Notes: generated by a model not told the origin, from the sequence alone. A stretch of DNA of 64,000 nt from an uncultured Chromatiales bacterium (GCA_964371045.1 CAYJMN010000004.1:59794-123793); one strand, 5' to 3'. Positions 462-40,788 are shown, counted from the first letter of the stretch. A program made the numbers and translations.

Positions 462-696
462 TTCATGTCCGTTTGTCGTGAGCTTCTAGCGTAGTATATC
501 AATGAAATCTATGAAAAGGATTCTCGAATGTCAAGATATGGGAGCAAAAAATCTCCGTATGTGGAAAATATTTCCCTCGCATGCAGTTAGCCTTGTAGCC
601 TGAACCCAAATCGAAGCGCGAGGAATAGTTCTCACCGCCTACCGCCTCGCGAAAGTACGCCTCGAATATCCCATTTGAGAAGCCGTGCACATAGTT

Positions 697-2165: not shown

Positions 2166-2282
2166 GAATAGCTGCAACTCATCCTGAATTCCAATTCGAG
2201 TTTCTGCTTTTCGATGCGCGTAAAGTTACTTTTTTTGCCCAGTTGTCACTCCACCTGCTTCCTTTACTCAGGCCACTCCGGC

Positions 2283-5735: not shown

Positions 5736-5739
5736 GAGG

Positions 5740-7440
5740 ATTTTGATGAGTCGAATACGTGGTACTGCGAATATTGATCCCGTGTCACAAACGAGACACA
5801 CGCGGCTGACTCTGAGCTGAGTGGACGAAAGGGCTCTCGCTACCTACACCGGTTTTATCCGCTGTCACAGTTTCCTTTTCACCAGAATGTTCCGTGTGGT
5901 CAATCCTCCAGCCGCCCACGTTCGTATCGGGCTGAATGAGATGAATGCTCTCTTTACTTAACGGCTTCTTCTCCGAACTCACAATCCTCGCACGATCGTT
6001 CTGCGGCGGCTCGTGGGTATGAAATTATGGACGTACCTATTCTCCTTGTGCGTTACGGAACGAATCATGCTTCTCCGCAGTAGCGGAGTCACCGGACAAC
6101 CTCAGAGGATCATCTTGAGATCTTGCTGCGGTGGCGCACTTCTTTTGACGTCAGGGACGTGCCCTCGTTTCCTCGTGTGTAAAGGAACGAATCATGCTTC
6201 GAGACGCCTCCGAAGAGGGACTTCAAAATTCCAATAATTCTCTTCGCGGCGGCTCCTGCTAATGACATCATTTAAAATCGGCTTGAATCGTCCTGATTTC
6301 GTAAACTCCCGCCCCGAACACAACGAACCCGGCGTCTGGCGCTGGAGATAATGCCCTCTCCGCCCTCTCCTCTGCCCGTCTCCCATCGGTGAGGATGAAG
6401 GGAGATTTTTCTAAATGCCACAAGTAGAACCCCTCTCCTTCTGGGAGAGGGGCAGGGGAGAGGGCAAGCAAGTACGCACGGCTTTCGCTATTCACACACG
6501 ATCCCAGGGAACCACCATGAACATCACTTCGATCCTCGCCCGTGGAGTAAGCTGTGCGCTGAGCGAAGTTTATGCAGTGCTTAAGGCGCAGATTCGGAAG
6601 TTGTTAAGCGCTGGATCGAATTACTTCCCCCTCTTCCTCCCACCTCTCTCGTGAGAGAGGACGGCCGGGGGTCGAAGACCGTAGGTCGGAGACTCGCTGC
6701 GGCGAGGTCGAAAGCCGAAGGCTGTACACTCGCCACGGCGAGGTGAGGGGTGAGCTAGTTTTCTCGAGTCTCCCCGTACGTTACGGAAGCAATCATTCTT
6801 CGAGACGCCGCCGAAGTAAACTCGTGGAAGCATGGACACTCACTCCGCGGCGGCTCCTGTTAATGACATCATGCAAAATGGGCGGAATCCTCATTTTCGC
6901 CTTCATCAACTCACCCCCCCGGCCCCCTGGTAGAGAGGGGGGAGGAAGAGGGGAAAATCAGTGATTTCCGTAGACGAGGCGGATTAAACATGATCGCCGA
7001 TACATAGATCCAACCTGTTGTCATCCTTGAAATGGACCAGCGTACGGTGCTGGTGGGCACACTCAGCATGACGAGCTTGGTTAGCGCGGATCCATACCCT
7101 CATGTCATCCACGAAATGGACCGGTGCGCAGCGCTGGTGGGCACACTCATAGTAACGATGTTGACTACACTCTTCGGAACCAAAAGCCTCCACATCATGA
7201 GCAGCGCTATCGACCATCTGTATCCACTATATCCTCTCCTCAGCGTCTCTGCGCCTCTGCGTCTCTGCGTTGAATTCTTCTCCCTTTGCGATAAAAAATC
7301 AATGAGGATCTGCGTTATCACTCGAGCGTAAGTTTGTGCGGATCGAGATTTTATCGCAGAGAGAAATTTGAGGGCGCATCTCTCTTGACACTCAGCCCGA
7401 AAATGCTGTTATTGGGTAACATAATCCTGTAAACGGCTGG
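5740..7440. repeat. Non-coding repeat desert (~1.7 kb) built from several dispersed repeat modules
   Basis: No ORF longer than 100 aa. It contains copies of GTTACGGAACGAATCATGCTTC (6044, 6182, 6779), GCGGCGGCTCCTG(C/T)TAATGACATCAT (6236, 6843), G/C-rich hairpins CCCTCTCC...GGAGAGGG (6350-6470) and CCCCCGGCCCCCT...AGGGGGGAGG (6610-6660, 6920-6960), and two tandem copies of the GTCATCC...GCGCTGGTGGGCACACTCA element (7024-7075, 7098-7150). It also has the octamer tandem CTCTGCGCCTCTGCGTCTCTGCG (7245-7270). Confidence 0.6.
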
Positions 7441-7470
7441 TGAATTGTGCCATAACATGGAATGTGACCA

Positions 7471-15957: not shown

Positions 15958-15974
15958 GTTACTTATCCGCTATA

Positions 15975-16115
15975 GCCAAGCTCGTCACTCAGAGTCAGGT
16001 AACCTTCGCTGCGCTTCAGTTTATATCGAGTGTGACATTGCTGCACGGCGGGGGTTGTGAGATCGGAGCAGAATCCGTTAAAAGAGAGCGGAGAGAGCGA
16101 AGAGAGCGGAGAGAG
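15975..16115. repeat. Repeat block immediately downstream of the RND operon, with an inverted-repeat element plus a CTCTC(C/T)GC octamer tandem
   Basis: TCGTCACTCAGAGTCAGGTAACCTTCGCTGCGCTTCAGTTTATATCGAGTGTGACAT has a near-identical second copy at 18612-18675, downstream of vapC. It is followed by the octamer tandem AGAGAGCGGAGAGAGCGAAGAGAGCGGAGAGAG (16078-16112). Confidence 0.55.
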
Positions 16116-16508
16116 TTTTTGCCAAACGCTGCTCGAATGGTTGTGCGAGGCTTGTTACCCCATGGATTCGCTCCGTACGCGATTTTACACCATGCCTTCA
16201 ATGTATGAACCCTTATAAAAATCTCTTCGCTCTCTCTGCTCTCTTTACACATTGGCTACTACTCCATACGCCAATGTACCCGGGGGCTTCAGTGTATGTC
16301 ATGAGAAGCGCAGCACCCGCAGTAGAGTGTGGGGTGTTCGGTACGTACTTCCACGGGGGCGCAGTCGAAGGGCCGCGTTCGTCCATCTCGGTGTTTATAG
16401 GTCCGGAGCATCACATGTCATGAGCTGTGCATGCGGATTACCTGATTTCGAGAGAGCAGTTTCCGAGCGCCCATTGTCCCGACCGGATTGAGGGCTGCCG
16501 CTAAAAAG

Positions 16509-17132: not shown

Positions 17133-17800
17133 GAACGGTTTGGATCAGGGGGGAGGCGCAAGGGAATAGGCGCAGGGGGAGGAGAAAATAACGCAGAGAC
17201 GCAAAGGAAAGGCGCAGGGGAGGGGAAATTAACGCAGAGACGCAAAGGCGCAGCGACGCAGAGGAGAGATGCACGGTGAGAAGAAATCAACGCACAGAGG
17301 CAGCTAGGAGAGGCAGATGGAGAAGAAATCCACGTGGAGACGCACAAGGGTAGGTGGGAAATTGAGTTCCTCAGCCCGCAGGGCGACACTTCCGTAGACC
17401 TCGCCGCGGCGAGTCTCCGGCCTGCGGCCTACGACCCTCACGTATGTGTGGGGTGTTCAGCGATCAGCACCCCACCCACTCCCCGGCCACTATGGGTCTC
17501 GAACAACTCACCCCCCGGCCCCCTCTCTCACGAGAGAGGGGGAGGAAAAGGTACTATTCAGTGTATATTTCATACATGCGGAGGCATACACGGCGGTTAC
17601 ACGGAGCGAATATCATGTCATCCACGAAATGCTCCGGTGCGCGGCGCTGGTGGGCTCCTTCTTATGACATCTTATAAACTCGGCTTAAATAGGCCTGAAT
17701 TCATAAACTCACCGTCAGGGATCCGGTCATTGGGGGTCTCGAACAACTCACCCCTGTCTCGCTCCCTTCGGCTTCGTTCAGGGAGCGGGCTTCCGGTGGT
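17130..17800. repeat. Repeat desert with an octamer tandem (ACGCAGAG)n, GAGTTCCTCAGCCCGCAGGGCGACACTTC, a GTCATCC...GGTGGGC copy, a TTATGACATC terminus and a CCCCCGGCCCCCT...AGGGGGAGG hairpin
   Basis: Octamer tandem at 17160-17300. GAGTTCCTCAGCCCGCAGGGCGACACTTC at 17365 is also present at 10260. An element copy sits at 17600-17660, and a G/C hairpin at 17500-17550 matches those at 6610-6660 and 6920-6960. Confidence 0.55.
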
Positions 17801-17928
17801 TGAGCGGAGCCGAAACCACCGGAAGCGAGCTTGGCCAACGCGCATTGCGACGTATCTGCGGCCTTGACAGTGACTCGGACGCTGTGTACATTCAAAATGC
17901 ATCCAAAATGGAACCACGGAGGAACATC

Positions 17929-18560: not shown

Positions 18561-18809
18561 GTCATTCCACCAGCGCTTTGCGCAGGTGCGTATCGGGTAT
18601 ACTTGGGTTTAGAAAAAATCATAAGGATCGTCACGCTGAGTCAGGTAAGCTTTGCTGCACTCCGGTTTATATCGTGTGTGACATGCCGCAGGGAGGGGAA
18701 TCAAACGCAGAGACGCAGAGATGCAATGAGCACCTATGTCATATGCGGAAAGCGATTGGCTGGAGACTTTGCTGCATGGGTCGCACGTTTCGCAGCTATC
18801 CCCCCTCTC

Positions 18810-19442
18810 TCAAAAGAATCGATGCATATACCCAATCTGGAACACCAGCTGGGGAGATGAAAAATCGCCGCTGCCGACCGTTGCTCCGGCCTGCAAAAAG
18901 AAACCACTGAGATTCAATTCGTACACCGCTCCGACGTAGTTCCACTCCCTCATCCTGCTGGAAAACCCTAGATCCTCCTCCACCTCCATGCTGCCGAGGA
19001 TGGCTGCCACCACATGGCTTCGGTCGGCATTGTCGGATAATCTGAATCCGACGTTCATCTGAAGCCCGCTGATTGGTCTACCCCAGATCATTCCCGAGAG
19101 ACGGAGACCGACAAGTCCAAACTGGTAGCCCATCGCGAAATTGATACCGGCGGGGGTTCCGAAATTGACCCCAAGCTCGGGATAGGACTGCGTATCGGAA
19201 TAGCCGGGCATTCCCTCGACGTTCTCCTTCCTGATGATCTCGATCTCGTCGAAGGTGTAGACGAATTCACTCCCATCCTTCGTTTTGATTTTCAGGCTTT
19301 TGTTCGGTACCTGCTCGATGATGGTTCCCAGGATTTTCGAGCCGTTGTGCAGGATGACGGCGTCCACCTGCTCCTGCGCGAGGCAGCGTCCTCCGACGAT
19401 GAGTACGATGAACATCATGATGGCGAGTACGTGTGGCTTCAT
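18810..19442 (-). CDS. Secreted/outer-membrane beta-rich hypothetical protein (210 aa from MKPHVLAIMMFIVLIVGGRCLAQ)
   Basis: A signal peptide, a C-terminal aromatic residue (…GYMHRFF) and alternating hydrophobic beta-strand patterning. AAAGGA lies 6 nt upstream of the ATG at 19442. Confidence 0.65.
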   Translation of the reverse strand: MKPHVLAIMMFIVLIVGGRCLAQEQVDAVILHNGSKILGTIIEQVPNKSLKIKTKDGSEFVYTFDEIEIIRKENVEGMPGYSDTQSYPELGVNFGTPAGINFAMGYQFGLVGLRLSGMIWGRPISGLQMNVGFRLSDNADRSHVVAAILGSMEVEEDLGFSSRMREWNYVGAVYELNLSGFFLQAGATVGSGDFSSPQLVFQIGYMHRFF

Positions 19443-19825
19443 GTTCCTTTCTCCTGACGGGTGTGGATGAAATTGCGTAGACCTTCGCGGATGTCGGTCC
19501 GCAGGAGGTGAAGCGGCAATAAAGATAACCGGGTGCTTTGGGCCGGTGAGAACGCCGGCTGGCCGCTGAATTTCCAGCCAGACGGCATTCAACGAAAGAG
19601 AATTCAAAATGTTCCCCGCCCTCACCCCTACCCCTCTCTGCCGGAGGCATCCCTCCGGGACCAGTAGGGAGAGGGGAAATTTTACGATTTACGATTTACG
19701 ATTGAAGATTTGAAGATTGAGGATTGGCGAATAACGAACTGACCATCGACGAATTGGAGATTTCTCGAATCGAAAATCGTCAATCGTAAATAATAAATCG
19801 TCAATCGTCAATCCAAAATCGTAAA

Positions 19826-22800
19826 TCACAATTTCGTAACCCGCCTTACCAGCACGGCATCGCCAAGCAACGCGACGAGATAGTACACGCCTGGCTTGCG
19901 GTCGCGGAGGGAGTGGGTAAATACCGCACCGCCATCCGGCAGGATACCGGTGTGGATGATTTCTGCACGGCCGAGTACATCGTAGAGAGCCAAGGTAACG
20001 GTTTGATTTTCCGCGCCGGTAAGCCCGATGCGCAGCATATCAGCCACTGGTTCGGGGTACACATTCAGCACGGCGCCTTCAGCGACAGGCGGCACGTCGT
20101 TGACATCGAGCACTGCGACGTTGAATGGATCGGACATGGCCGAGCAGCCTTCCGCATTGGTGACCCGGACCTGATAGACGCCGGTTTGCGTCAGCGCGAG
20201 CAGCGGGCCGGTTGCGCCGGGCATGAGAACGCTGTTCCGATACCATTGATACTGATGCGCCGTGTCGGTTCGAATAACATCCCCGAGGCGGCGGATGACG
20301 GGCTTCGCGGGTGACGGTTTCATCGAGACCGTTACGGTATCCGAATTGCCCCAGCAGTTGTCCGTACTGCGGACGCGCACATGATAACTTCCCGCGGCAG
20401 TTACGTCGATGCCGGGCGTTGTTGCACCGGTGCTCCATTCATATTCCGCATAGCTGCCCGTGGTCCGCAGCGTGACCGCTTCTCCTTTGCAGATGGCAAC
20501 AGGATTGCCCGGCGTGATGACCGGCACAGGGAGCTGATACACCGCGACGCGAACCGTGTCGGAACGGCCATACACACCATCGCTGCGACGGACGACGCAG
20601 GAGTAGTCACCTGAACGCTTGACGATGATTTGCTGTGTCTGTTCGCCGCCCATCCAAAGGTACGACGCGTATCCGCTCCCCGCATCGAGAATGACGGAAT
20701 CGCCTTCGCAGAACGCCAGCGGGCCGTTGGCTGTGAGTTGTACATCGAAGCTCTGAGGCGGGAGACCAGGGATGCGCAGTTGGACTTCGCATTTGCTGGA
20801 ATCGGTGTTCGTCGAATATGTCCACACGGTGATGGTGTAGGTTCGCTCCGTCTCGACAGGTGCGTGCAGCAACATCCATGTTACGTTTCCGCTCTGGGTT
20901 GGATTAAGCATCGGGGGTAGCAGATGCTTTGTAAAGCGGTTCGGGGCGTCGGGCGCTGCGAGCGAGAACTCCGGTGGCAGGACAATACTCGTCAACACCG
21001 TGTCCGTTAACATGCCGCCGGTGTTCAGCGCTGTTACGGTGAGTGGAAAGGGCATGGGTGAATAGCGCAGGTTTACTGTATCTGCTGTGATGTTCGGTAC
21101 ATCGATGTCGCATTCGAGCATCGGTCCTGTACGCTGAATGTACACCTTCAGGCAGCATGTCACATCCGGGTAGTTGTCGAAGCTGCTTTGAATGCAAATT
21201 TCGACAGAATCCCCGGAGGTCCGTTTTTTCGCCGCCAGCTGCCAGGTCACTTCCGCAAACATCCCCGAGGCGATATCCGCCGGTGTGGGAGTTTGTGTGC
21301 TAGTGGCAGGCGAAATCAGGCTGACTGCATTCGTGTCCACGATGATTCTGTAGATCGCATTCAGCAGTGTTGTATCGCCGACATTGTCAAAGCGCCCTGT
21401 GACCACGAAGGGATTCGGATAGTAGTCCTTGAGCGTGCGCTTCCACTCCAGGCTCGTCGGGCCGGTGATACCACAGACAGCGTTTGGCTGTTTGGGATAG
21501 ATGCAGATTCTGCCTGTATCGACAATCGGTCTGAAGCACCCCTGCTCAAACTGCGGATTCACTCCGCGAATCTCGCAGCACGTCGTGTCAAAAGGATCCG
21601 ACGCCTTGAACGTAAACTCCATCAAAACGCCGCTCCCGTTCAAGAGCTTGCGGTCCATCACCTGGATCAGCGCGCCCGTCGGTACCGGCGTCACCGAGAT
21701 CGGCAGGCCATCGAGTAGTGTGCTCGGGGTCGTCGACACGCTTTTGAACTGCATACACAAGGGATTGAACTCCAGCGTGAACTGGAAGGGGTAGAACATC
21801 TCGCCGTTGATAGGTGTGAGGAGGGTCAGGGGTATCGTGATGCCGTCACCGCTTTTCGCGACAGCATCGCCGAGCTTCATGTTGAGATTCGAGTATGTCG
21901 ATGAATCCAGGGGGGCGCGGTAGGTTTTTATCTTCGTGTCGGTTCCCCCGCAGAAATCCTTCAACTGCAATTCCACCGTCCGCAGGGCACCGTCCATGCA
22001 ATCATCTTCGTAGGTAATCACACAATCCTGGAAACTCTGCCGAAGTATGCCGAAAATTTCCTGATATATCGCCGCGAGCTGACCGGAATTCGGCGTCTGA
22101 TAGAATTTTCCGCCCGTCAGCTGGGCGATGAGTTCCAGTTCCACCGTATTGATGCCGGTACCAATGCCAACGGTGAATACACGGATTTGGTGGCGGTCGG
22201 CCAGTGCAATAATCTCCGACGGCTGACGGCCGGATGCATTGTCTCCGCCATCGGTCAGCAGGATCACTGCCCGGCACTGGTTCACCCCGTTATTGATCAG
22301 CTCAATCAGGCCAGCGTAGCCGCCGTCCCAGACCGCCGTCGCACCATTGGCAGGAAGCGCATCCACCGCTGAATGCAGCCTGGTCGTGTCCGTAGTCATT
22401 TGCTGCTGGATTATCACCGTCGAATTGAACCATAGCACCGAGGCTTCGTCGATGTTGCCGTCCATTAGATCGATGAAGGCATGGCCCGCCTGTTTCGCGC
22501 CGGCATTGCCGGATCCAATCATCGATCCTGACGCGTCGAACACAAGCGACACCGATATAGCGCAGGGGATGGTGGGATTAGGGCACGACAACGTGAAATT
22601 CTTGACCTCGACGCCGTTCTCGAAAATCCGGAAATCCTGCATCGACATGTTGTACGCCGGATTGCCGTCGCAGCCGACGGAGAAATACAGCTCGATGGTT
22701 GGCCAGTTGACGGTCACCCGTTTGAACGTCAGGTTCGGTTGCGCCTGTACGATCGGCGCGGCGAGACAGATGACAAGCAGAAGCGCGGAATGCCGCCACG

Positions 22801-22831
22801 CGTTACTATTGGATTTGCCCGGAAACTTCAT
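19826..22831 (-). CDS. Paralogue 1 of 5 (1001 aa): signal peptide, vWA domain with MIDAS, Cys-rich beta-sandwich region, SprB/Ig-like repeats and a T9SS C-terminal domain. A surface adhesin-like protein
   Basis: The vWA reads ...CAISVSLVFDASGSMIGSGNAGAKQAGHAFIDLMDG...AVILLTDGGDNASGRQPSEIIALADRHQIRVFTVGIG..., with an intact DxSxS. Repeats of the form ICKGEAVTLRTTGSYAEYEWSTGATTPGIDVTAAGSYHVRVRSTDNCWGNSDTVTV follow. The CTD is ...LNVYPEPVADMLRIGLTGAENQTVTLALYDVLGRAEIIHTG...GVYYLVALLGDAVLVRRVTKL. Confidence 0.9.
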   Translation of the reverse strand: MKFPGKSNSNAWRHSALLLVICLAAPIVQAQPNLTFKRVTVNWPTIELYFSVGCDGNPAYNMSMQDFRIFENGVEVKNFTLSCPNPTIPCAISVSLVFDASGSMIGSGNAGAKQAGHAFIDLMDGNIDEASVLWFNSTVIIQQQMTTDTTRLHSAVDALPANGATAVWDGGYAGLIELINNGVNQCRAVILLTDGGDNASGRQPSEIIALADRHQIRVFTVGIGTGINTVELELIAQLTGGKFYQTPNSGQLAAIYQEIFGILRQSFQDCVITYEDDCMDGALRTVELQLKDFCGGTDTKIKTYRAPLDSSTYSNLNMKLGDAVAKSGDGITIPLTLLTPINGEMFYPFQFTLEFNPLCMQFKSVSTTPSTLLDGLPISVTPVPTGALIQVMDRKLLNGSGVLMEFTFKASDPFDTTCCEIRGVNPQFEQGCFRPIVDTGRICIYPKQPNAVCGITGPTSLEWKRTLKDYYPNPFVVTGRFDNVGDTTLLNAIYRIIVDTNAVSLISPATSTQTPTPADIASGMFAEVTWQLAAKKRTSGDSVEICIQSSFDNYPDVTCCLKVYIQRTGPMLECDIDVPNITADTVNLRYSPMPFPLTVTALNTGGMLTDTVLTSIVLPPEFSLAAPDAPNRFTKHLLPPMLNPTQSGNVTWMLLHAPVETERTYTITVWTYSTNTDSSKCEVQLRIPGLPPQSFDVQLTANGPLAFCEGDSVILDAGSGYASYLWMGGEQTQQIIVKRSGDYSCVVRRSDGVYGRSDTVRVAVYQLPVPVITPGNPVAICKGEAVTLRTTGSYAEYEWSTGATTPGIDVTAAGSYHVRVRSTDNCWGNSDTVTVSMKPSPAKPVIRRLGDVIRTDTAHQYQWYRNSVLMPGATGPLLALTQTGVYQVRVTNAEGCSAMSDPFNVAVLDVNDVPPVAEGAVLNVYPEPVADMLRIGLTGAENQTVTLALYDVLGRAEIIHTGILPDGGAVFTHSLRDRKPGVYYLVALLGDAVLVRRVTKL

Positions 22832-22869
22832 TCCTCACTCCTTGGCCAATAAGAGGATATAATGACACC

Positions 22870-22898
22870 ATTGTATGAAGAAATGGCACGAATGTCAA
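22870..22898 (-). promoter_or_regulatory. Sigma70-like promoter of paralogue 1: TTGACA, a 17-nt spacer, then TACAAT, with AAGGAGTGAGG as the Shine-Dalgarno
   Basis: On the gene strand the sequence is TTGACAttcgtgccatttcttcaTACAATggtgtcattatatcctcttattggccAAGGAGtgaggaATG. A homologous TTGACA-17-TACAAT lies upstream of paralogue 4 (about 33680-33710), and a TTGACA-17-TACTGG upstream of paralogue 2 (about 26715-26745). Confidence 0.45.
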
Positions 22899-23251
22899 CA
22901 TGCGGAGCGCAGAGATCTCTACGATAAAAGGAGATCCGCACAATGTGGCTCCGCCGCGATAGTCCTCGTCGATTTTTATCGCCGAGGGCACAGAGGGCGC
23001 GGAGGGCACCGAGATTTCTTTAAATGTTTCATTTACCTTAGTCTGTGGCTGTCCGAGGTCTTAGTTTCCAGAACAATGCGCGTAGCTGGTATTTCGGCTT
23101 GCTCTTTTCAACTCAAAGGAAACCTTCCGAGATGCGCCCTCAAATTTCTCTCTGTGCCCTCGGCGATCTCGGCGATCTCTGCGATAAAAAGAGATCCGTA
23201 CAATCTTGCCCTTCCGCGTTTCTGCGTTATATTCTTCTCTGCGTCTCCGAT

Positions 23252-26200
23252 TTACATTTTTGTTACCCGCTTCACCAGCACGGCATCGCCAAGCAACGCG
23301 ACGAGATAGTACACGCCTGGCTTGCGGTCGCGGAGGGAGTGGGTAAATACCGCACCGCCATCCGGCAGGATACCGGTGTGGATGATTTCTGCACGGCCGA
23401 GTACATCGTAGAGAGCCAAGGTAACGGTTTGATTTTCCGCGCCGGTAAGCCCGATGCGCAGTACATCGGTCGCAGGCTCCGGCCAAACGTTCAGCAATCT
23501 ACCTTCTGCGATTGCCGGTTCATGCCCGGTTTCGAGCACGGTGACGCCGAACGGATCGGACATCGCCGGACAGCCCTCTGCATTGGTGACCTGGACCTGA
23601 TATTGTCCCGACTCTGTGACGCTCAGCGACTGGCTGGATGCGGACGGAAGCTGGAGACCGTTTCGGTACCATCGGTACGAAACCGCCGGATCGGTGGACA
23701 ATACATTGCCGTTTCGCTGGACGCCGGGTTTAGGCGGCGACGGTTTTTTCGTTACAACGACAGTATCGGAAAGATTGCGGCAACCGGCGCTATTGCTGAC
23801 CTCAACATAGTAGCTGCCGGCAGTTTTAACTGAGATTCCCGGAGTCATCAGCCCGTTGTTCCACAGGTAGCTCAGGAAACCGCTTCCTACGGAAAGGAAC
23901 ACCGAGTCTCCTTCACAAATCTCCGTCGATCCTGTGATGACCAACCGCGCGTATGGTTTCGGCAGGAAGGTAATCACCACGGTGTCGGAAATCCCGGTGC
24001 ACGTGAGAGAGCTGCTCACCCGTACATAATACGTGCCGGGCGCTGTCACGATTATGCTTGAGTCGGTGCTTCCGTTACTCCACTGGTACGACGGGTAGAT
24101 GCCGCTGACAGACAGATGAAGCGAATCGCCTTCGCATAGCGTTCTCGATCCGATTGGAAATATCCGCGGTGTGAGATTGCGAAGCACTGTGACTACCACC
24201 GTATCGGATTCCCCCATGCAGAAAGGTCTGTCGCCAACACGCACATAATACGCCCCCGATGCCCTCACTATAATGTCCGGATTCGTGCCGCCGTTGCTCC
24301 ATTGGTATGTCTGATAGCTTCCGGAGACGGATAATCGGAGAGAGTCGCCTTCGCAGATCGTCGTCGGTCCGCTGACGTTGAGGCGCGGAGATGGCCTTGG
24401 AGAAACCGTTACCTGAACCGTGTCGGAGTATCCGATGCTTCCGTTTGCCTGTTGCACTGTGCAAAAATACAAACCCGCTGCTGTGATCGGGACGCGCTGC
24501 GTTTGCGGGCCATGCGACCATCGATAGGATGCGTAGCCGTTCCCGGCGTCAAGTATCACGGAATCCCCCTGGCATAATGCGGTCGAACCCTGCGCCGCAA
24601 GTTTGAACGCGAATCTGTTTAGCACATATCCCGGAATGGTAATGTTCACCTCGCATTTTGATGAATCCGTATTCGCCGTTTTCACCCAGACAGTCACGGT
24701 GTAATGCTTATCTGCATCCGAATGGGGATGATGCACCATCCATGCCAGATTTGCGCTCTGACCGGGATTCAGTTGCGACGGTACCATGCTCTTGGTGTTG
24801 CGGTCCGGAGCATCAGGGTATGCGAGTTCGAGATCCGGCGGCAGGATGATGGATGCAAACATCGGTTCGGTCTGCATCAGGCCTGTGTTGTTTGCAGTGA
24901 CCGTAATCGGGAACGGCATCGGATCGTACCCGGAATTCACCGTATCCGCGATAATGACGGGCGCATCAAGCGCACAGTCCACGAGAGGCCCGGTTTGCGG
25001 AATGAACACGTTCGTGCAACATATCACATCAGGATGATTGTCGAACGATGCGGTGATGCAAATCATTGTCGAGTCGCTGCTCGCCCGGCAGTTCGCGGCA
25101 AGCTGCCACACTGCTTCGCTTTCCCCTGCTGGCTGCACATCCGGAGGCGAAGCAGCCTGAACATCGGCCACGGGTGCGGCCAGTCTCAAGGTTGCAGTAT
25201 CGAATGCGATTCTGAAGCGAGCATTGCGTGCTTCCTTGTCACCAACGTTCAGGAGCACTCCCCTGACGGGGAAAGGACTTGGCGTGTAATCCTTCGCCAG
25301 CTTATTCCACGTCAAACCTGGTACACGTTCGATTCCGCAGTAGACTTCGGGGAGTCTGGGAAGAATGCAGATTTCACCCGGAGTAATTACAGGACTGAGG
25401 CAGCCTTGCTCGAACACGGCATTGCTGCCGTAGATACCGCAGCATAGGGTGTCGTCGGGATCGGACGCCCGGAACTGTAATTCAAGGAGCAATCCGCTGC
25501 CGGAAATCAACTTGCGGTCGTTGATACGGATCAGGCTTCGCATGGCAATGGTCGTTACCGACAAGGGCAGGCCTTCGATCAAGGAACCCGGGGGAGTCGA
25601 TACGCTCAGCAGCTTCGCGCACGATGTGTCGTGTTCAAGTGTGAATTCGAACGGAAAAAACATTTCGGCGTTGAGTGGCGTGAGCAGGTTCAGCGGAATC
25701 GTAATCGTGCCGTTGCTTGCAACGCTGCCTCTCCCCAGTTCCAGCGAAAGTGTCCTGAACGTCGAGGTGTCCCTCAAGGCCAGGTACTGCTTTGTTTCCG
25801 TGTCCGTCCCGCCGCAATAATCCTTCAGCCGTAGCTCGACCGTGCGCAGACCGCCGTCCGCGCATTCACGATCATAGGCAATCATGCATTCCCGGAAACC
25901 TGAGGCGACGATTCCGGATATTTCCTGATAGATCGCCGCCAGTTGTCCCGGATCAGCCGTCTTGTAGACCCTTCCGCCCGTCGTCGGTACAACATATTCG
26001 AGCTCGTTCGTGTTGAAATTTGTCCCCAGTGCGATTGTGAACAGACGAATGTGATGCTGTCTCGCCAGCGCCGCATTCATCTGCGCTTCTGCTATGCTTG
26101 AATTATCGTATCCATCCATCATCACGATAAGCGCGCGGTACGGGTTGACTCCGTTGCTGATCAACTCAAGCAGACCTGCATGCACGCACTCCCACATACA

Positions 26201-26704
26201 CACTTCGCCGCCAATGGGCAGGGAATCCACGGCGGAATGCAGCAGCGCTTTACTGGTCGTAATCTGCTGTCGAATCGTCACCGCCTGTCCGAACCAGAGA
26301 ACCGCGGCTTCGTCTGACACGCCGTTCATTGCATTGATGAACGCATGCCCAGCCTGCTTCGCGCCGGCATTCGCGGAAGCGGTCATGGAACTGGTCGCGT
26401 CAAAGACCAATGCTACCGAGCCAATGCAGCGTACTGCCGGATTCGGGCACGTGAGCGTGAAATCCGTCACTTCAATTCCATTTTCGTGGATACAGATATC
26501 CTGCTTCGTCATGCTGAATGACGGATTGCCGCCGCACTCAGCCGAAAAGAACAATTCAATCGTCGGCCAGTTGACGGCCACCCGCTTGAACGTCAGTTCC
26601 GGCTGCGCCTGCACCTGCACAAACGGCGCGGCGAGACAGATGATGATCAGCAGCGCTGCGTATTGCCACGCGTTACGATTGGTTTTGCCCGGATACTCCA
26701 TCAC
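23252..26704 (-). CDS. Paralogue 2 of 5 (1150 aa), same architecture with extra Ig/SprB-like repeats
   Basis: Same vWA (...SVALVFDATSSMTASANAGAKQAGHAFINAMNG...). Its last 65 codons are nucleotide-identical to those of paralogue 1 (23268-23463 equals 19840-20035). Confidence 0.9.
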   Translation of the reverse strand: MMEYPGKTNRNAWQYAALLIIICLAAPFVQVQAQPELTFKRVAVNWPTIELFFSAECGGNPSFSMTKQDICIHENGIEVTDFTLTCPNPAVRCIGSVALVFDATSSMTASANAGAKQAGHAFINAMNGVSDEAAVLWFGQAVTIRQQITTSKALLHSAVDSLPIGGEVCMWECVHAGLLELISNGVNPYRALIVMMDGYDNSSIAEAQMNAALARQHHIRLFTIALGTNFNTNELEYVVPTTGGRVYKTADPGQLAAIYQEISGIVASGFRECMIAYDRECADGGLRTVELRLKDYCGGTDTETKQYLALRDTSTFRTLSLELGRGSVASNGTITIPLNLLTPLNAEMFFPFEFTLEHDTSCAKLLSVSTPPGSLIEGLPLSVTTIAMRSLIRINDRKLISGSGLLLELQFRASDPDDTLCCGIYGSNAVFEQGCLSPVITPGEICILPRLPEVYCGIERVPGLTWNKLAKDYTPSPFPVRGVLLNVGDKEARNARFRIAFDTATLRLAAPVADVQAASPPDVQPAGESEAVWQLAANCRASSDSTMICITASFDNHPDVICCTNVFIPQTGPLVDCALDAPVIIADTVNSGYDPMPFPITVTANNTGLMQTEPMFASIILPPDLELAYPDAPDRNTKSMVPSQLNPGQSANLAWMVHHPHSDADKHYTVTVWVKTANTDSSKCEVNITIPGYVLNRFAFKLAAQGSTALCQGDSVILDAGNGYASYRWSHGPQTQRVPITAAGLYFCTVQQANGSIGYSDTVQVTVSPRPSPRLNVSGPTTICEGDSLRLSVSGSYQTYQWSNGGTNPDIIVRASGAYYVRVGDRPFCMGESDTVVVTVLRNLTPRIFPIGSRTLCEGDSLHLSVSGIYPSYQWSNGSTDSSIIVTAPGTYYVRVSSSLTCTGISDTVVITFLPKPYARLVITGSTEICEGDSVFLSVGSGFLSYLWNNGLMTPGISVKTAGSYYVEVSNSAGCRNLSDTVVVTKKPSPPKPGVQRNGNVLSTDPAVSYRWYRNGLQLPSASSQSLSVTESGQYQVQVTNAEGCPAMSDPFGVTVLETGHEPAIAEGRLLNVWPEPATDVLRIGLTGAENQTVTLALYDVLGRAEIIHTGILPDGGAVFTHSLRDRKPGVYYLVALLGDAVLVKRVTKM

Positions 26705-26873
26705 TCACTCCCAGTATGAAAAAATGGCAGGATTGTCAACGTGCGGAGCGCGGAGAGCGTAGAGTGATGCGCACTCGGCGATCTCTGCGATAGAAGGAAA
26801 TCCGCACAATGTGGCCACCTGTAACGACATAAGTCCTTGCTGCTGTGTTCCATTGTGCGGGTCAACTTTTAAT

Positions 26874-26925
26874 CGCCGAGGGCACAGAGGGCGCCGAGGG
26901 CACAGAGGGCGCCGAGGGCACGGAG
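26874..26925. repeat. 18-bp variable-number tandem repeat (CGCCGAGGGCACAGAGGG x ~3) in the paralogue 2 upstream module. The same repeat has about 2 copies upstream of paralogues 1 and 4
   Basis: Direct reading gives 26874-26925 (about 2.9 copies), 22979-23013 (about 2 copies) and 33833-33866 (about 2 copies). A neighbouring 9-mer array CTCGGCGAT has 3 copies at 23159-23185 and 27069-27096 and 2 copies at 33766-33783. Confidence 0.7.
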
Positions 26926-27156
26926 ATTTTTTTAAATGTCTCATGTACATGAGTCTGTGGCTGTCCGAGGTATTTTAAAGCTTAATCGTATTCCGGGAAA
27001 TTGATCAGTGTACTTTCATCAACTTCTGAAAACCTTCCGAGATGCGCCCTCTAAAAAGCTCTCTGTGCCCTCGGCGATCTCGGCGATCTCTGCGATAAAA
27101 GGAGATCCGCACAATCGTCAATCGTCAATCGTCAATCCAAAATCGTCAATCGTAAA

Positions 27157-30100
27157 TCACAATTTCGTAACCCTCTTCACCAGCACGGCATCGCTGAGAA
27201 TCGCGACGAGATAGTACACGCCGGGCTTGCGGTCGCGGAGGGAGTACATGAAATCCGGCGAATCACCCGCGAGCATTCCTTTGAAAATCACCTCGGTGCG
27301 TCCAAGGATGTCGCAGAGCATCAGCGTCACGGCCTGCGCTTCAGAACGACCAAGGGAAATGTGCAGCGCGTCGCTGGCGGGTTCCGGATACACCAAGAGC
27401 GCGGGACTTCCCGCGATCGGCTGTTCGTCGTCGATGCCGAGTACGGTGACGATGAAATCATCGGAGCATACGGTGCAGCCCTCCGCGTTCGTAACGCAAA
27501 CCTGGTAGCGTCCCGTCCCGGTGAGGACCAGGAATTGATTTGTCGCGACAGACAACTTGACGCCATCTCTGTACCATTGGTAGGCGTGTTCAGGGCCGGT
27601 AGTCAGCACATCGCCATTGCGCTGAATGATGGGCTTCGCGGGAACCGGTTTGGTTGTGACGACGACGGTATCCGAGTAGCCCCAGCAGCTGTCCGCGTTG
27701 CGTACCCTCACATAATATGATCCGGCTGTCCTGGCGGTGATGCTCGCACTCGTTGCTGCGTTGCTCCATTGATACTGCGAAAAAGATCCGACGACACTGA
27801 GCTGTACCGAATTGCCTTCACAGAATGGTATCGATCCGCTGACGGACAGCCTGGGGGCCGGTGTCGGCAGGACAGTTACGTGGATGGTATCGGATATCCC
27901 CCTGCGACCGTCCGGGTGCTGGACGACGCAGAAATAGTCTCCGCTTGTCTCAACCTGAATGCCCCGGGTCTGGCGTCCATTTGACCAGTGATAAGAGGTA
28001 TAGCCCGGGCCTGCGTCGAGGATGACGGATTGACCGTCGCAGAAACGCAAGGCGCCATCGGCCTGGAGTGTCGTCGTGAAATCTTTCGCCGGTAATCCGG
28101 GAATGATAACATCGATTTCACATTTCGACGAATCTCCATCGCGGGTCACAATCCAGACGATCACCGTGTATCTGCGTTCGACTGTTGAATGCGGGTGCGT
28201 GACCATCCATGACGTGCTGTCGGTATCCCCTGGAAACCCAAACCAGGGCATCACTATTTTCGTATGCTGATTCGGAGCGTCGGGTGCGGCCAGTTCAAGA
28301 TCGTTCGGCAGGACGATGGTGGCACGGGCCGAATCCGTATCCGTGCCTCCGTTATTTGTTACCGTGACCTTTAGCGGGAACGGCATTGGCACGTTCCGGA
28401 AAAACAGGCTGTCCGCTATGATTGACGGAGCGTCCAGCGAGCACTCGAGAATTGCCCCTGTCTGCGGTATGAATATCTTCATGCAGCACGTCACGTCGGG
28501 ATGGTTATCAAAACTGCTCCTGATACAGATGTCAATCGAATCGGCGTAGAGTCTAAGCCCTGGTTCGAGCTGCCAGGTCACATCCGTATGTGTCAAGGGT
28601 CCGATATCAGCCGGCGAGAGGACTTGCGTATCCGAGAGGGGCGATACGAGCCGCACCTCCGATGTATCGAAGAGGATTCGGTATCGGGCGTTCAGGGCCG
28701 CCGCATCGCCTGTGTTGCTCACGCGCGTCGTGATGCTGAACGGATTCGGGCTGTAGTCCCTGATATCCCGCCGCCAAAGGAGACGATCGGGACCATTGAT
28801 GTCGCAGGAGATTGACGGCAGTGTGGGGTAGATGCAGATCTCGCCGGGATCGATGACCGGTACGAAACAGCCTTGTTCGAAGACCGGATTCGCACCACGG
28901 ATTTCGCAGCAGGAAGTATCCGATCGATCGATCGTTCGAAACGTGAATTCCATAAGCGTGCCAGTCCCGGCGAGCGGCTTGCGACCCGACACCTCGATCA
29001 GCGCTCCCGCCGCCGTCGGCGTCACCGCGATCGGAAGGCCTTCAAGCAACGAGCCCGATGGGGTCGCGACGCTCTTGAGCTTCACGCAGGATGTGTCGTA
29101 CTTCAGCTCGAAGTGGAAGGGGTAGAACATTTCGCCATTGACCGGTGTGCGGAGATTCATGGGTATCGTGATGTCGGTCCCGCTCATCCCGACAGCATTG
29201 TCAAGCTCCATTGTTAGACTCGAGAAAGTTGACGAATCAAGGGGTGCGCGGTAGGTCTTGGTCTTCGTGTCGGTTCCGCCGCAGAAATCCTTCAATTGCA
29301 GATCCACAGTTCGCAGGGCGCCGTCTTCGCAATCACGATCATACGTGATGACACACTCCTGGAAACCCTGGCGAAGCATGGTGATAATCTCCTGATACAT
29401 CGCCGCGAGCTGGCCGGCGTTCGTCGTCTGATAGAATTTTCCGCCAGTCACCTGTGCGACCAGCTCGAGTTCCACAGTATTGATGCCGGAACCAATGCCG
29501 ACGGTGAACACCCGGATGCGGTGGCGGTTGGCCAGCGCGATGATCTCTGAAGGCTGCCGCGTCGAGGAATTGTCGCCGCCGTCCGTCAGCAGTATGACGG
29601 CGCGGCATTGATTCACGCCATTGTTGATCAATTCGATCAAGCCTGCGTAGCCGCCGTCCCACACCGCCGTCATTCCACTCGCTGGCAGAGCGTCCACCGC
29701 CGAATGCAGCATGGGTTTGACTGTTGTCATCTGTTGATATGGCGTCACGACAGACGTGAACCAGATTACCGTCGCTTCATCGATCACGCCGTCCATCAGG
29801 TCGATGAACGCGTGGCCAGCCTGTTTGGCGCCCGCATTGCCTGAACCACTCATCGACCCGGATGCGTCAAACACGAGTGACACCGAGATAGCACATGGGA
29901 TGGTGGGATCGGGACACCACAGCGTGAAGTCCTTTACCTCCACGCCGTTTTCGTAGATGCGGAAATCCTGTTTCGACATGTTGAACGCTGGATTGCCGTC
30001 GCAACCGACCGAGAAATACAGCTCGACCGTCGGCGAGCTCGCTGTCACGCGTTTGAACGTCAGGTTCGGCTGCGCTTGCAGCAGCGCAAGCGGCGCGGTG

Positions 30101-30168
30101 AGACCGATGATAATGATAAGCGCGGCGAATGCCAGCGTCTTCAGGGTGAATGTCCCGGAACTCTCCAT
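27157..30168 (-). CDS. Paralogue 3 of 5 (~1003 aa from ATG 30168, i.e. MESSGTF...), same architecture
   Basis: The ORF finder opens at TTG (30192). The ATG at 30168 is preceded by GAGGAG. The N-terminal ~315 aa are identical to paralogue 4. Confidence 0.9.
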   Translation of the reverse strand: MESSGTFTLKTLAFAALIIIIGLTAPLALLQAQPNLTFKRVTASSPTVELYFSVGCDGNPAFNMSKQDFRIYENGVEVKDFTLWCPDPTIPCAISVSLVFDASGSMSGSGNAGAKQAGHAFIDLMDGVIDEATVIWFTSVVTPYQQMTTVKPMLHSAVDALPASGMTAVWDGGYAGLIELINNGVNQCRAVILLTDGGDNSSTRQPSEIIALANRHRIRVFTVGIGSGINTVELELVAQVTGGKFYQTTNAGQLAAMYQEIITMLRQGFQECVITYDRDCEDGALRTVDLQLKDFCGGTDTKTKTYRAPLDSSTFSSLTMELDNAVGMSGTDITIPMNLRTPVNGEMFYPFHFELKYDTSCVKLKSVATPSGSLLEGLPIAVTPTAAGALIEVSGRKPLAGTGTLMEFTFRTIDRSDTSCCEIRGANPVFEQGCFVPVIDPGEICIYPTLPSISCDINGPDRLLWRRDIRDYSPNPFSITTRVSNTGDAAALNARYRILFDTSEVRLVSPLSDTQVLSPADIGPLTHTDVTWQLEPGLRLYADSIDICIRSSFDNHPDVTCCMKIFIPQTGAILECSLDAPSIIADSLFFRNVPMPFPLKVTVTNNGGTDTDSARATIVLPNDLELAAPDAPNQHTKIVMPWFGFPGDTDSTSWMVTHPHSTVERRYTVIVWIVTRDGDSSKCEIDVIIPGLPAKDFTTTLQADGALRFCDGQSVILDAGPGYTSYHWSNGRQTRGIQVETSGDYFCVVQHPDGRRGISDTIHVTVLPTPAPRLSVSGSIPFCEGNSVQLSVVGSFSQYQWSNAATSASITARTAGSYYVRVRNADSCWGYSDTVVVTTKPVPAKPIIQRNGDVLTTGPEHAYQWYRDGVKLSVATNQFLVLTGTGRYQVCVTNAEGCTVCSDDFIVTVLGIDDEQPIAGSPALLVYPEPASDALHISLGRSEAQAVTLMLCDILGRTEVIFKGMLAGDSPDFMYSLRDRKPGVYYLVAILSDAVLVKRVTKL

Positions 30169-30389
30169 CACATTCTCCTCAATTGAAATCAATCTACCAG
30201 GCTATTACGCCCCACTGTGATGCGAAGGCGCGAAGGAGAAATAAACGCAAAGTCGCAGAGGAGAGGAGAATTTAACGCAGAGACGCAAAGATGCAACGTC
30301 GCAAAGGAGAATTAAACATTCGAAAAAACCCCTCTGCGCCTCTCCGCCTCTGCGTCTCTGCGTTTCATTCTTCTCTCCGCGTCACCGCG

Positions 30390-33623: not shown

Positions 33624-34026
33624 CACACCCTCCACGGCGAATAAGAAGATATAATGATACAATTGTATAAAGAAAGAATTCTAATGTCAAGACGTTGCAG
33701 AAAAGCGAAGCGCAGAGCGCAGCGAGCGATGCGCCCTCAAATTTCTCTCTGTGCCCTCGGCGATCTCTGCGATAAAAGGAGATCCGCACAATCTGGACAA
33801 TCGCAGTAAGACAAGGCCTCGTTGATTTTTATCGCCGAGGGCACAGAGGTCGCCGAGGGCACGGAGATATATATAAATGTCTCATTTACTTGGGTCTGCG
33901 GCTGTCCGGGGTCTTAACATCGAAAATCGTCCCGTCTTCGCTTTCGTTTACCGACGGTTGTGGCATGTACCGTTGATGCCTCGGCGGGCGTTCCGCAATC
34001 AAAAATCGTCACTCGTCACTCGTAAA

Positions 34027-37080: not shown

Positions 37081-37395
37081 ATCATATTATCCATTAGAAT
37101 TTCCATCGCCCCGCATCGACGCCCGGTACGGTTCATCTGTGCTTCCGGTCGGTGACGCTTCGGGATGGTGGAGCCGGATGCCTGTTCCTGGAATATGTAC
37201 GTGCCGGCAAATCTGCACCGAAGGCCTCTATAAATAAACCGTGAAGACCCGGAAAGTTACAGCTGCGATTCCGCACGCTGACATAAATGATATTATGGTA
37301 AAAAAACGCCCTTGACTTTTCGCATCCTGTTCCGTACGTTTCATGATACAGGATAGGCAAGTCCTTAGTAACACCATCCGAGGAAAGGAGGCCGT

Positions 37396-40647: not shown

Positions 40648-40788
40648 CGAACGGCGCAGCATGACCGCAGATGCAAGCGGGAAGCCATGACCACGGGCGG
40701 GGGTTTGCCCCGCCCGTGGTTTTTGCTACACGGAGAGATGAGAACATGCCTGAAAGAACTGCTGCTTCGCGGTAAGGGACAGCAGACC

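What the first reader, a model, noticed from the sequence alone, without database searches (positions are those of the whole stretch)
22832..23251. Duplicated promoter module upstream of paralogues 1, 2 and 4, with a palindromic operator-like direct repeat abutting the -35 box and variable-number 9-mer and 18-mer repeats
On the gene strand the intergenic regions 22832-23251, 26705-27156 and 33663-34026 share the same layout. First comes a direct repeat ATTGT(A/G)CGGATCTC(C/T)TTTTATCG(C/T)AGAGATC, itself an imperfect palindrome of the form GGATCTC-N11-GAGATC. Then a 9-mer tandem (CTCGGCGAT, 2-3 copies). Then a conserved ~80-bp core AAATGA(A/G)ACATTTAAA...ATCTC(G/C)GTGCCCTC. Then an 18-mer tandem (CGCCGAGGGCACAGAGGG, 2-3 copies), the inverted partner CTCTGTGCCCTCGGCGAT, a second copy of the palindromic repeat, and finally a TTGACA-17-TACAAT promoter. 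Paralogue 4 has only one palindromic copy. Paralogue 3 uses an unrelated (ACGCAGAG)n octamer region instead, and paralogue 5 has none. The palindrome directly upstream of or overlapping -35 is the classic position for a repressor or activator operator. Copy-number variation of the short tandems between otherwise homologous promoters could tune expression of individual paralogues, giving differential or phase-like expression of the adhesin array.
Basis: partly seen in the sequence, partly recalled or inferred. Interest (0 to 1): 0.6.

Follow-up and report, generated by a model that had tools for sequence, protein, structure and literature searches.

The report
Repeat-invaded spacers before adhesin-gene promoters
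The shared sequences between these tandem surface-protein genes are an old, conserved promoter plus recently added copies of a modular hairpin-forming repeat, with no sign that they act as a regulator-binding switch, so the finding is real but fairly ordinary.

Summary
The described modules are in the sequence. Three spacers of a five-gene array (VWA + Ig-like + T9SS sorting domain, minus strand) share a 31-nt weakly palindromic repeat (PR, 5 copies), 9-mer and 18-mer tracts, a ~50-nt core and a TTGACA-17-TACAAT promoter.

The layout is not uniform. Paralogue 4 has the modules in a different order, and paralogue 2 has a damaged -10 box.

Only the promoter, its 5'UTR and simple 7-mer and 9/18-mer tracts are conserved in syntenic arrays of related Bacteroidota MAGs. 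PR, the G-rich arm (module B) and the core are absent there.

Within this genome the modules are 82-94% identical between spacers in the three-way alignment (up to 98% in local matches), while the linkers between them are 31-67% identical.

Module B belongs to a dispersed repeat family. It also occurs after mutS and after other unrelated genes in other genera, and partly upstream of an unrelated gene at 7239-7390.

Module B and the 18-mers are inverted repeats that form a long foldback. PR lies 15, 40 or 71 nt from -35, its own hairpin is weak, and no regulator gene is nearby. Seven metagenome assemblies show no change in repeat number.

Best reading: a MITE/BOX/BrickBuilt-like foldback repeat inserted upstream of an ancestral promoter. 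It probably acts, if at all, as an RNA hairpin between transcription units.

The parts
22870..22898 (-). Sigma-70-type promoter of paralogue 1. TTGACA is at 22893-22898 and TACAAT at 22870-22875, with a 17-nt spacer.
   Evidence: 11 of 12 positions; coordinates. Conserved in relatives.
22832..22869 (-). 5'UTR and ribosome-binding site of paralogue 1 (GGTGTCATTATATCCTCTTATTGGCCAAGGAGTGAGGA).
   Evidence: Conserved with the spacers of L028 and L031.
22899..22913 (-). C/T-rich tract (TCTGCGCTCCGCATG) abutting -35. It is the remnant of the ancestral pre-promoter pyrimidine repeats.
22914..22944 (-). PR copy 2 of spacer 1 (ATTGTGCGGATCTCCTTTTATCGTAGAGATC), 15 nt upstream of -35.
   Evidence: (D18).
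22945..22972 (-). Linker E, poorly conserved between spacers (52-67%).
22973..23010 (-). C-rich arm: 9/18-mer tract (CCCTCTGTGCCCTCGGCG) followed by ATAAAAA. It is the right arm of the foldback.
   Evidence: (I14).
23011..23060 (-). Conserved core D (GACCTCGGACAGCCACAGAC...ACATTTAAAGAAATCTC).
   Evidence: (D14).
23061..23122 (-). Variable linker C (54% identity between up1 and up2).
23123..23173 (-). Module B: a G-rich tract with 9-nt period (GCCGAGATC GCCGAGGGC ACAGAGAGA) plus the tail AAATTTGAGGGCGCATCTCGG. It is the left arm of the foldback and a member of a dispersed repeat family.
   Evidence: (I3, I6, I9).
23174..23204 (-). PR copy 1 of spacer 1 (ATTGTACGGATCTCTTTTTATCGCAGAGATC).
23205..23251 (-). 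Post-stop purine-rich octamer-like tract (GGAGACGCAGAGAAGAATATAACGCAGAAACGCGG). It is complementary to the tract before -35.
26705..27156 (-). Spacer upstream of paralogue 2, with the same module order. Coordinates: 7-mers 27112-27158; PR 27085-27115; B 27033-27084; core 26923-26972; 18-mers x2.9 at 26867-26922; PR' 26780-26810; -35 at 26734-26739; defective -10 (TACTGG) at 26711-26716.
33662..34026 (-). Spacer upstream of paralogue 4, with permuted order. Coordinates: ancestral 5' part 33917-34026; core 33864-33913; 18-mers 33826-33863; PR 33762-33792; B 33728-33761; -35 at 33685-33690; -10 at 33662-33667.
7239..7390 (+). Partial fourth copy outside the array. It consists of an octamer C-arm (7239-7269), an E-like GCGATAAAAAATCAATGAGG (7288-7307), a degenerate PR plus the B tail (7333-7380) and TTGACA (7385-7390). 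It lies upstream of an FGE-sulfatase-domain gene.
30260..30378 (-). Octamer-based foldback (48-nt arms, 23-nt loop) in the spacer between paralogues 4 and 3. It has the same architecture with different arm units.
   Evidence: I4; z -6.2.
19681..19827 (-). 7-mer-based foldback downstream of paralogue 1, at the end of the array.
   Evidence: I8, I11; z -4.9.

Best explanation
Each spacer is a mosaic of two layers.

**Layer 1, ancestral.** After the upstream gene's stop codon comes a purine/T-rich 7-mer tract, then a pyrimidine-rich 9/18-mer tract. A sigma-70-type promoter (TTGACA-17-TACAAT) with a conserved 5'UTR follows.

**Layer 2, specific to this lineage.** This layer consists of one or two copies of a modular, non-coding repeat.
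- The repeat has a head (PR), a G-rich tract of 9-nt period with the tail TTTGAGGGCGCATC (module B), and a core next to the C-rich 18-mers.
- Module B is the reverse complement of the 18-mer tract, so the insert is a foldback with roughly 30-60-nt imperfect arms.
- The tracts grew by slippage in 9-nt steps.
- The modules were spread or homogenised among three spacers, and to one unrelated promoter region, by recombination or transposition.

**How it works (inferred, not shown).** The foldback lies between the stop codon and -35, so it is present only in read-through transcripts from the upstream paralogue. There it would form a long hairpin that blocks, processes or stabilises the 3' end, making each paralogue its own transcription unit. 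It does not act as an operator. Expression of each paralogue starts at the old promoter.
For: **The array and its promoter are ancestral; the modules are not**
- The array predates the species split: W_p1 groups with L028_g3 and L031_g4 (75-77% aa identity), and W_p5 with L028_g1 and L031_g2.
- The relatives' spacers keep the 7-mers, the pre-promoter 9/18-mers, the promoter and the 5'UTR, but lack PR, B and the core.

**Modular conservation within this genome**
- Between up1 and up2 the modules are 88-94% identical and the linkers are 54% identical.
- The flanking paralogues are only 44-70% identical in protein.

**Module B belongs to a dispersed family**
- It aligns to units in L045 at 46 of 55 positions, with score 61 against a shuffle maximum of 24. 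The non-repetitive tail alone has p about 0.0005.
- The related units lie after mutS (L045), after a 667-aa gene (L006, L008) and between other genes (L060).
- A partial copy lies at 7239-7390.

**Foldback structure**
- The arms are 29-59 nt long and 74-86% complementary.
- Folding z-scores of the window's spacers are -2.4 to -6.2. The relatives' inter-paralogue spacers are near 0. The relatives' end-of-array spacers are -4.6 to -5.9.
- No canonical intrinsic terminator lies in these spacers. Other genes of the same genome have them: window 40690-40725 and L033.

**Other negatives consistent with this reading**
- No gene is called in the spacers.
- No Rfam family matches at E <= 1.
Against: - No target-site duplication could be defined.
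- No further PR copy was found in about 23 kb more of the same genome (L019 extension, L033) or in public collections. Mobility is therefore not shown, and spread inside the array could be gene conversion alone.
- The hairpins are followed by A-rich, not U-rich, sequence on the gene strand, so they are not canonical intrinsic terminators.
- The fold is about as stable on the opposite strand, so nothing singles out RNA of the gene strand.
- Conserved modules next to diverged linkers could also reflect selection for protein binding.
- There are no expression data.
Confidence: 0.5

Rival explanations
1. The modules are selfish or neutral repeat DNA. They are slippage-prone microsatellite tracts and a dispersed repeat that settled in permissive spacers, with no selected effect on the adhesin genes. 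Their similarity reflects recent copying or gene conversion only.
For: - The modules are absent from orthologous spacers of relatives that keep the promoter.
- The family occurs in unrelated contexts and in both orientations relative to genes.
- The genome is full of other intergenic repeats.
- No known RNA family matches.
Against: - Modules are 88-94% conserved while adjacent linkers are about 54% identical.
- Arm complementarity is kept with three different arm units (7-, 8- and 9/18-mers) in five spacers of the array.
Confidence: 0.25
2. PR is the operator of a dimeric regulator that controls paralogues 1, 2 and 4, and perhaps the gene at 7471. The number of 9-mer and 18-mer repeats tunes promoter strength.
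For: - PR is the best-conserved short element (90-94%) and has a perfect 6-bp dyad.
- A PR copy precedes each of four TTGACA boxes.
- In relatives, 9/18-mer pyrimidine tracts abut -35 directly, and their copy number differs between paralogues and species.
Against: - The PR to -35 gap varies (15, 40, 71 and 21 nt) with no common helical phase.
- PR is absent from orthologous promoters.
- The extra PR copies lie about 300 nt upstream.
- No regulator gene is nearby.
- The five dyads are copies of one sequence, so they are not independent evidence.
- There is no variation in repeat number in 6-7 assemblies.
Confidence: 0.12
3. The inverted arms flank an invertible DNA segment, a Bacteroidota-type inverton that switches expression of the downstream paralogue.
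For: Inverted repeats of 29-59 nt flank 74-150-nt segments upstream of surface-protein genes. Invertons are common in this phylum (own knowledge).
Against: - The conserved promoter lies outside the flanked segment, and no promoter-like site scoring 9 of 12 or better lies inside it.
- The orientation is the same in all 6-7 assemblies.
- The only recombinase-like gene nearby is an integrase fragment about 22 kb away.
Confidence: 0.03
4. The core between the arms is a small non-coding RNA gene, or a cis-regulatory leader, with its own function.
For: The 50-nt core is 82-88% conserved among the three copies and is enclosed by a stable stem.
Against: - No Rfam match at E <= 1.
- No promoter-like site in front of the core on either strand.
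- The core is absent from relatives.
- The core lies upstream of the mapped promoter, so it is not in the mRNA leader.
Confidence: 0.05

Closest known systems
BOX elements of Streptococcus pneumoniae (boxA-(boxB)n-boxC) and other pneumococcal small repeats (PMC3049150; PMC10969869)
   Same: - Modular and non-coding, with a variable number of an internal unit.
- Folds into a stable secondary structure.
- Sits in intergenic regions next to promoters and terminators, and clusters with other repeats.
   Different: - The sequence is unrelated.
- Here the variable parts are 9-nt-period tracts that themselves form the two complementary arms.
- The copy number in the genome is unknown.
BrickBuilt MITE of Porphyromonas gingivalis (PMC4596501)
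   Same: - The host is a Bacteroidota with a T9SS.
- The element is intergenic.
- It contains a head-to-tail tandem repeat flanked by leader and tail subunits with inverted ends.
- It is associated with promoter activity.
   Different: - BrickBuilt has a 23-nt unit, 19 dispersed copies and promoters inside the element.
- Here the units are 9/18 nt, the promoter is ancestral and outside the element, and dispersal is shown only weakly.
Correia (CREE/NEMIS) and ERIC elements (PMC10969869; PMC3184786)
   Same: - A foldback of about 100-230 nt with inverted ends.
- It is inserted between genes.
- Those elements give hairpins in transcripts that are cut by RNase III or change mRNA stability, which is the mechanism proposed here.
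   Different: - Correia has defined 26-bp terminal inverted repeats, a TA duplication, an IHF site and more than 100 copies.
- None of these could be shown here, and the arms here are microsatellite-like.
REP/BIME elements of enterobacteria (own knowledge; PMC3184786)
   Same: - Short palindromic units combined with other motifs into mosaics at the 3' ends of genes.
- They act as mRNA 3'-end stabilisers or attenuators.
   Different: - PR folds weakly.
- All PR copies have one orientation.
- No RAYT transposase is known for this genome.

Membership tests
Sigma-70-type promoter | -35 and -10 hexamers close to TTGACA and TATAAT with a 16-18-nt spacer, upstream of the start codon | tested here: met
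   11 of 12 positions with a 17-nt spacer for paralogues 1 and 4. Paralogue 2 has TACTGG as its -10 box.
Sigma-70-type promoter | Conservation at orthologous positions in related genomes | tested here: met
   TTGACA-17-TACAAT plus the 5'UTR is conserved in L028_g2 and L031_g2-g4.
Sigma-70-type promoter | Mapped transcription start site | not testable with these tools
   No transcript data are available.
Operator of a dimeric transcription factor | Dyad symmetry | tested here: inconclusive
   There is a perfect 6-bp dyad with an 11-12-nt spacer. Such a dyad occurs in 2.5% of shuffled 31-mers, and the five copies are not independent.
Operator of a dimeric transcription factor | Fixed position and phase relative to the promoter | tested here: not met
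   The gaps to -35 are 15, 40, 71 and 21 nt.
Operator of a dimeric transcription factor | Conservation at orthologous promoters, and a cognate regulator nearby | tested here: not met
   PR is absent in L028, L031 and L032. No regulator domain was found in the window's ORFs.
Phase-variable simple-sequence contingency locus | Repeat tract inside the promoter spacer or the reading frame | tested here: not met
   The tracts lie about 75 nt or more upstream of -35.
Phase-variable simple-sequence contingency locus | Repeat-number polymorphism between populations | tested here: not met
   Spacers up1, up2 and up3 are identical in six assemblies, and up4 in a seventh. These are consensus sequences only, possibly of one strain.
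MITE | Terminal inverted repeats | tested here: met
   Arms are 29-59 nt long and 74-86% complementary. Both ends carry TTTTATCGC / GCGATAAAA.
MITE | Target-site duplication | tested here: inconclusive
   The flanks of the arms were compared by eye in up1 and up2 and no shared direct repeat was found. The boundaries are uncertain.
MITE | Small size and no coding capacity | tested here: met
   About 220-231 nt from end to end. No genes are called in the spacers.
MITE | Many dispersed copies in the genome | tested here: inconclusive
   Three clustered copies plus one partial copy in about 87 kb of this genome. Module B relatives occur in four other contigs. The whole genome was not available.
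MITE | Empty sites in related genomes | tested here: met
   The orthologous spacers lack the modules.
MITE | Parent IS with matching ends | tested here: not met
   The only IS in the window (DDE_5 transposase, inverted ends at 686-713 and 2149-2176) has unrelated ends.
Bacteroidota invertible promoter (inverton) | A promoter inside a segment flanked by inverted repeats, with both orientations present | tested here: not met
   No promoter-like site lies inside the segment. A single orientation is seen in 6-7 assemblies.
Any Rfam RNA family | Covariance-model match | tested here: not met
   No match at E <= 1 in 19400-37500. There is none at gathering score in the array.
Canonical intrinsic terminator | GC-rich stem followed by a U-tract on the gene strand | tested here: not met
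   None is found in up1, up2 or up4. The arms are followed by ATAAAAA.

The most novel reading that the evidence does not exclude
This uncultured Bacteroidota lineage carries an undescribed family of modular foldback repeats whose two complementary arms are built from 7-9-nt microsatellites. Three arm types occur in one gene array. The repeats have colonised the spacers of a T9SS adhesin array, where they act as hairpin insulators or processing sites that uncouple the paralogues. They may also act as recombination hot spots that drive concerted evolution of the paralogues.
Probability: 0.15. Interest if true: 0.5.

Novelty: new member of a known kind. Interest (0 to 1): 0.27.

Why it matters
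- Conserved, palindromic-looking sequence next to a promoter in a paralogue array should not be read as an operator without comparison to related genomes. Here only the promoter is ancestral.
- If the foldbacks insulate the paralogues, they would be an example of repeat invasion turning a possibly co-transcribed adhesin array into independent units.
- The repeat family is undescribed but belongs to a well-known class, so the general significance is modest.

Tried and rejected
**Searches that led nowhere**
- Exact-pattern scans for PR in genome contigs and metagenome contigs gave 0 hits.
- The metagenome scan for GAGAKCGCCGAGAKCGCCGAGGGC gave 31 hits. Most are coding sequence of high-GC organisms. 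From their context, L045 and L060 are clearly the same repeat family, L038 and L059 hold similar-looking non-coding foldbacks, and L040 and L046 hold longer tandem tracts in unclear context.
- PR, the 18-mer and octamer motifs are not in L001-L018.
- The Rfam scan gave nothing in the array.
- Attempts to sample more of the same genome mostly failed. The transposase is single-copy. P0021, P0118 and P0099 come from other organisms. Three look-ups failed on start-codon differences.

**Ideas tested and dropped**
- *The foldback at 16083-16245 has a homologous core.* Rejected: local alignment scores are no better than shuffles.
- *All inter-paralogue spacers in the lineage fold into hairpins.* Rejected: the relatives' spacers have z near 0.
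- *PR is a stable hairpin.* Rejected.
- *The IS ends match the element.* Rejected.
- *The SNP blocks show gene conversion between paralogues 3 and 4.* Not upheld: both copies always carry the same allele in each assembly, so collapse of repeats during assembly explains the pattern equally well.

Full report
**Context.** The window holds five tandem paralogues on the minus strand: 19826-22831, 23252-26704, 27157-30192, 30390-33662 and 34027-37080.
- Each has a VWA domain and Ig-like domains, and four of the five match the T9SS C-terminal sorting domain.
- Many other T9SS cargo genes surround them.
- The closest relatives are uncultured Bacteroidota / Ignavibacteria-like MAGs.
- The window is part of an 89,935-nt metagenome contig that was assembled independently from many samples.

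**Checking the observation.** The modules exist and are far beyond chance.
- The GGATCTC-N11-GAGATC repeat (PR) occurs five times with 0-1 mismatch on the gene strand, only in the three spacers.
- The 16-nt core of the 18-mer occurs ten times in these spacers, against 0.85 matches expected in the whole window.
- TRF reports CTCGGCGAT x3.0 in two spacers. The 18-mer is present at 2.9 copies (up2) and 1.9 copies (up4). In up1 only a 9-mer period is reported (x3.3), about 1.7 18-mer units.
- The two best sigma-70-like matches in 19 kb (11 of 12 positions) lie just upstream of paralogues 1 and 4.

- Paralogue 4 has the order core-18mers-linker-PR-B-promoter. Paralogues 1 and 2 have PR-B-linker-core-18mers-linker-PR'-promoter.
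- PR is 15 nt from -35 only at paralogue 1. The gap is 40 nt at paralogue 2 and 71 nt at paralogue 4.
- Paralogue 2 has lost about 29 nt and retains only TTGACA-17-TACTGG.
- The palindrome is modest. A perfect 6-bp inverted repeat occurs in 2.5% of shuffled 31-mers. The isolated PR hairpin (-6.7 to -9.3 kcal/mol) is no better than shuffles.

**Anatomy.**
- The sequence after PR reads in a 9-nt period: GCAGAGATC GCCGAGATC GCCGAGGGC ACAGAGAGA AATTTGAGG GCGCATCTC. I call this stretch module B.
- The 18-mer is two such 9-mers on the other strand. Module B and the 18-mer tract are therefore inverted repeats (29-59 nt, 74-86% complementary).
- Both arms end with TTTTATCGC / GCGATAAAA.
- The spacers fold into long hairpins with z-scores of -2.4 to -6.2.
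- The spacer between paralogues 4 and 3 has the same architecture built from octamers. The region after paralogue 1 has it built from 7-mers.

**Comparison with relatives.** Syntenic arrays exist in a 5.24-Mb MAG (L028, three paralogues) and in L031/L032 (four paralogues).
- Paralogues 1 and 5 have clear orthologues there (72-77% aa identity). The array is therefore older than the species split.
- The relatives' spacers (221-279 nt) keep four features:
  - the post-stop 7-mers;
  - pyrimidine-rich 9/18-mers (TTCTGCGTG)n that abut -35;
  - the TTGACA-17-TACAAT promoter;
  - the 5'UTR.
- PR, module B and the core are absent from the relatives. Their inter-paralogue spacers do not fold unusually (z about 0). 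Only the end-of-array spacer does (z -4.6 to -5.9).
- The promoter is therefore ancestral, and the PR/B/core modules are a later addition in this lineage.

**Nature of the addition.**
- Between up1 and up2 the modules are 88-94% identical, while the linkers between them are 54% identical. The paralogues they separate are 44-70% identical in protein.
- A partial copy lies at 7239-7390 (+). It has an octamer arm, an E-like linker, a degenerate PR, the B tail and TTGACA. It sits upstream of an unrelated FGE-sulfatase-domain gene.
- Module B is significantly similar to about 90-nt units in other genera: 46 of 55 positions, score 61 against a shuffle maximum of 24, and tail alone p about 0.0005.
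- Those units occur as four tandem copies after a 667-aa gene (L006; also L008), as two copies after mutS (L045) and as one copy between other genes (L060).
- The PR head itself has no significant counterpart there (p = 0.066). It also has no match in public collections.
- A second VWA array of the same genome (L033, same sample and coverage) lacks the modules. It has canonical intrinsic terminators after its first two genes.

**Stability.** The spacers upstream of paralogues 1, 2 and 3 are base-identical to the window in six assemblies from different samples. The spacer upstream of paralogue 4 is identical in a seventh. These are consensus sequences, possibly of one strain, so low-frequency variants cannot be excluded.

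**Interpretation.**
- The promoter reading is supported by phylogenetic footprinting.
- The operator reading is not supported: the geometry varies, PR is absent at orthologous promoters, no regulator gene is nearby, and the dyads are copies of one sequence.
- The phase-variation reading is not supported: the tracts are far from the core promoter and show no polymorphism.
- The best description is a modular foldback repeat of the MITE/BOX/BrickBuilt/Correia kind (PMC10969869, PMC4596501, PMC3049150, PMC3184786). It is inserted between the stop codon of one paralogue and the ancestral promoter of the next.
- Strict MITE membership is not established. No target-site duplication was found, dispersal is uncertain and no parent IS is known.
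- The most likely effect is inferred from position, from the absence of canonical terminators in this array and from what Correia and ERIC elements do. It is a long hairpin in read-through transcripts that ends, processes or stabilises them.
- A neutral-repeat explanation remains a serious rival.

**Verdict.** The repeat family is new, but it is of a known kind.

Noticed in passing
window 37236-37261 (-); L028:3307-3332; L031:7-32; L033:659, 4704, 8213, 10506: A motif TGTAAYT-N12-AYGGKWT lies about 150-190 nt upstream of paralogue 5. It also lies upstream of the first array gene in two relatives and of all four genes of a second VWA array in the same genome. Only 0.01 matches are expected in the window. 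It may be an alternative-sigma promoter, which would mean the first gene of the array is controlled differently from paralogues 1-4.
   Followed up: partly
window 29302-29971 (paralogue 3), 32757/32778 (paralogue 4), 30963-31212 (222-nt repeat in paralogue 4): Assemblies from different samples differ by three blocks of linked SNPs, in all combinations. The window's allele always equals paralogue 4. Homologous sites in paralogues 3 and 4, and in both copies of the 222-nt repeat, change together. This could be gene conversion or repeat collapse during assembly, and the data cannot distinguish them.
   Followed up: partly
window 26705-26760 (-): The promoter of paralogue 2 has a deletion of about 29 nt compared with paralogue 1. 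It leaves TTGACA-17-TACTGG just upstream of the ribosome-binding site. This copy may be poorly expressed or may depend on read-through.
   Followed up: partly
window 7239-7282, 10192-10247, 16083-16245, 17153-17330, 18698-18726; L033:4395-4520: Other intergenic regions carry (ACGCAGAG)n or (AGAGAGCGG)n tracts. Some have a complementary tract nearby that forms a foldback; for example 16083-16245, after the AcrB gene, has a centre of about 100 nt. The centre of that element is not similar to the core of the array elements.
   Followed up: partly
window 5736-7470, 15958-16508 and 17133-17900: Long stretches without convincing genes are full of other short dispersed motifs. One example is TCATGTCATCCACGAAATG...GCGCTGGTGGGC, at 7100-7150 and 17615-17665. 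Another is a motif shared with L033:4327-4444.
   Followed up: no
window 47089-47161 (-): There is a SAM-II (SAM_alpha) riboswitch match just above threshold (37.9 bits against 36). It overlaps the start of an ORF with a YkuD L,D-transpeptidase domain, which is an unusual partner for a SAM riboswitch.
   Followed up: no
window 30853-31310 (-): Paralogue 4 contains a 222-nt tandem duplication (2.1 copies, 98% identical), which adds one Ig-like module.
   Followed up: no
window 686-2176 and 210-461: A single-copy IS with a DDE_5 transposase (inverted ends at 686-713 and 2149-2176) lies next to an 83-aa integrase fragment. Radical-SAM and pentapeptide-repeat genes and a type I restriction gene lie beyond the window's left end.
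   Followed up: no
L028:13013-13116 and L031:13013-13160: In relatives the last paralogue is followed directly by a hairpin. It is made of purine-rich 7-mers (AGAGCGG, AAGAGTG) and their complement (z -4.6 to -5.9). So foldbacks with tandem-repeat arms at gene ends are a trait of the whole lineage.
   Followed up: partly
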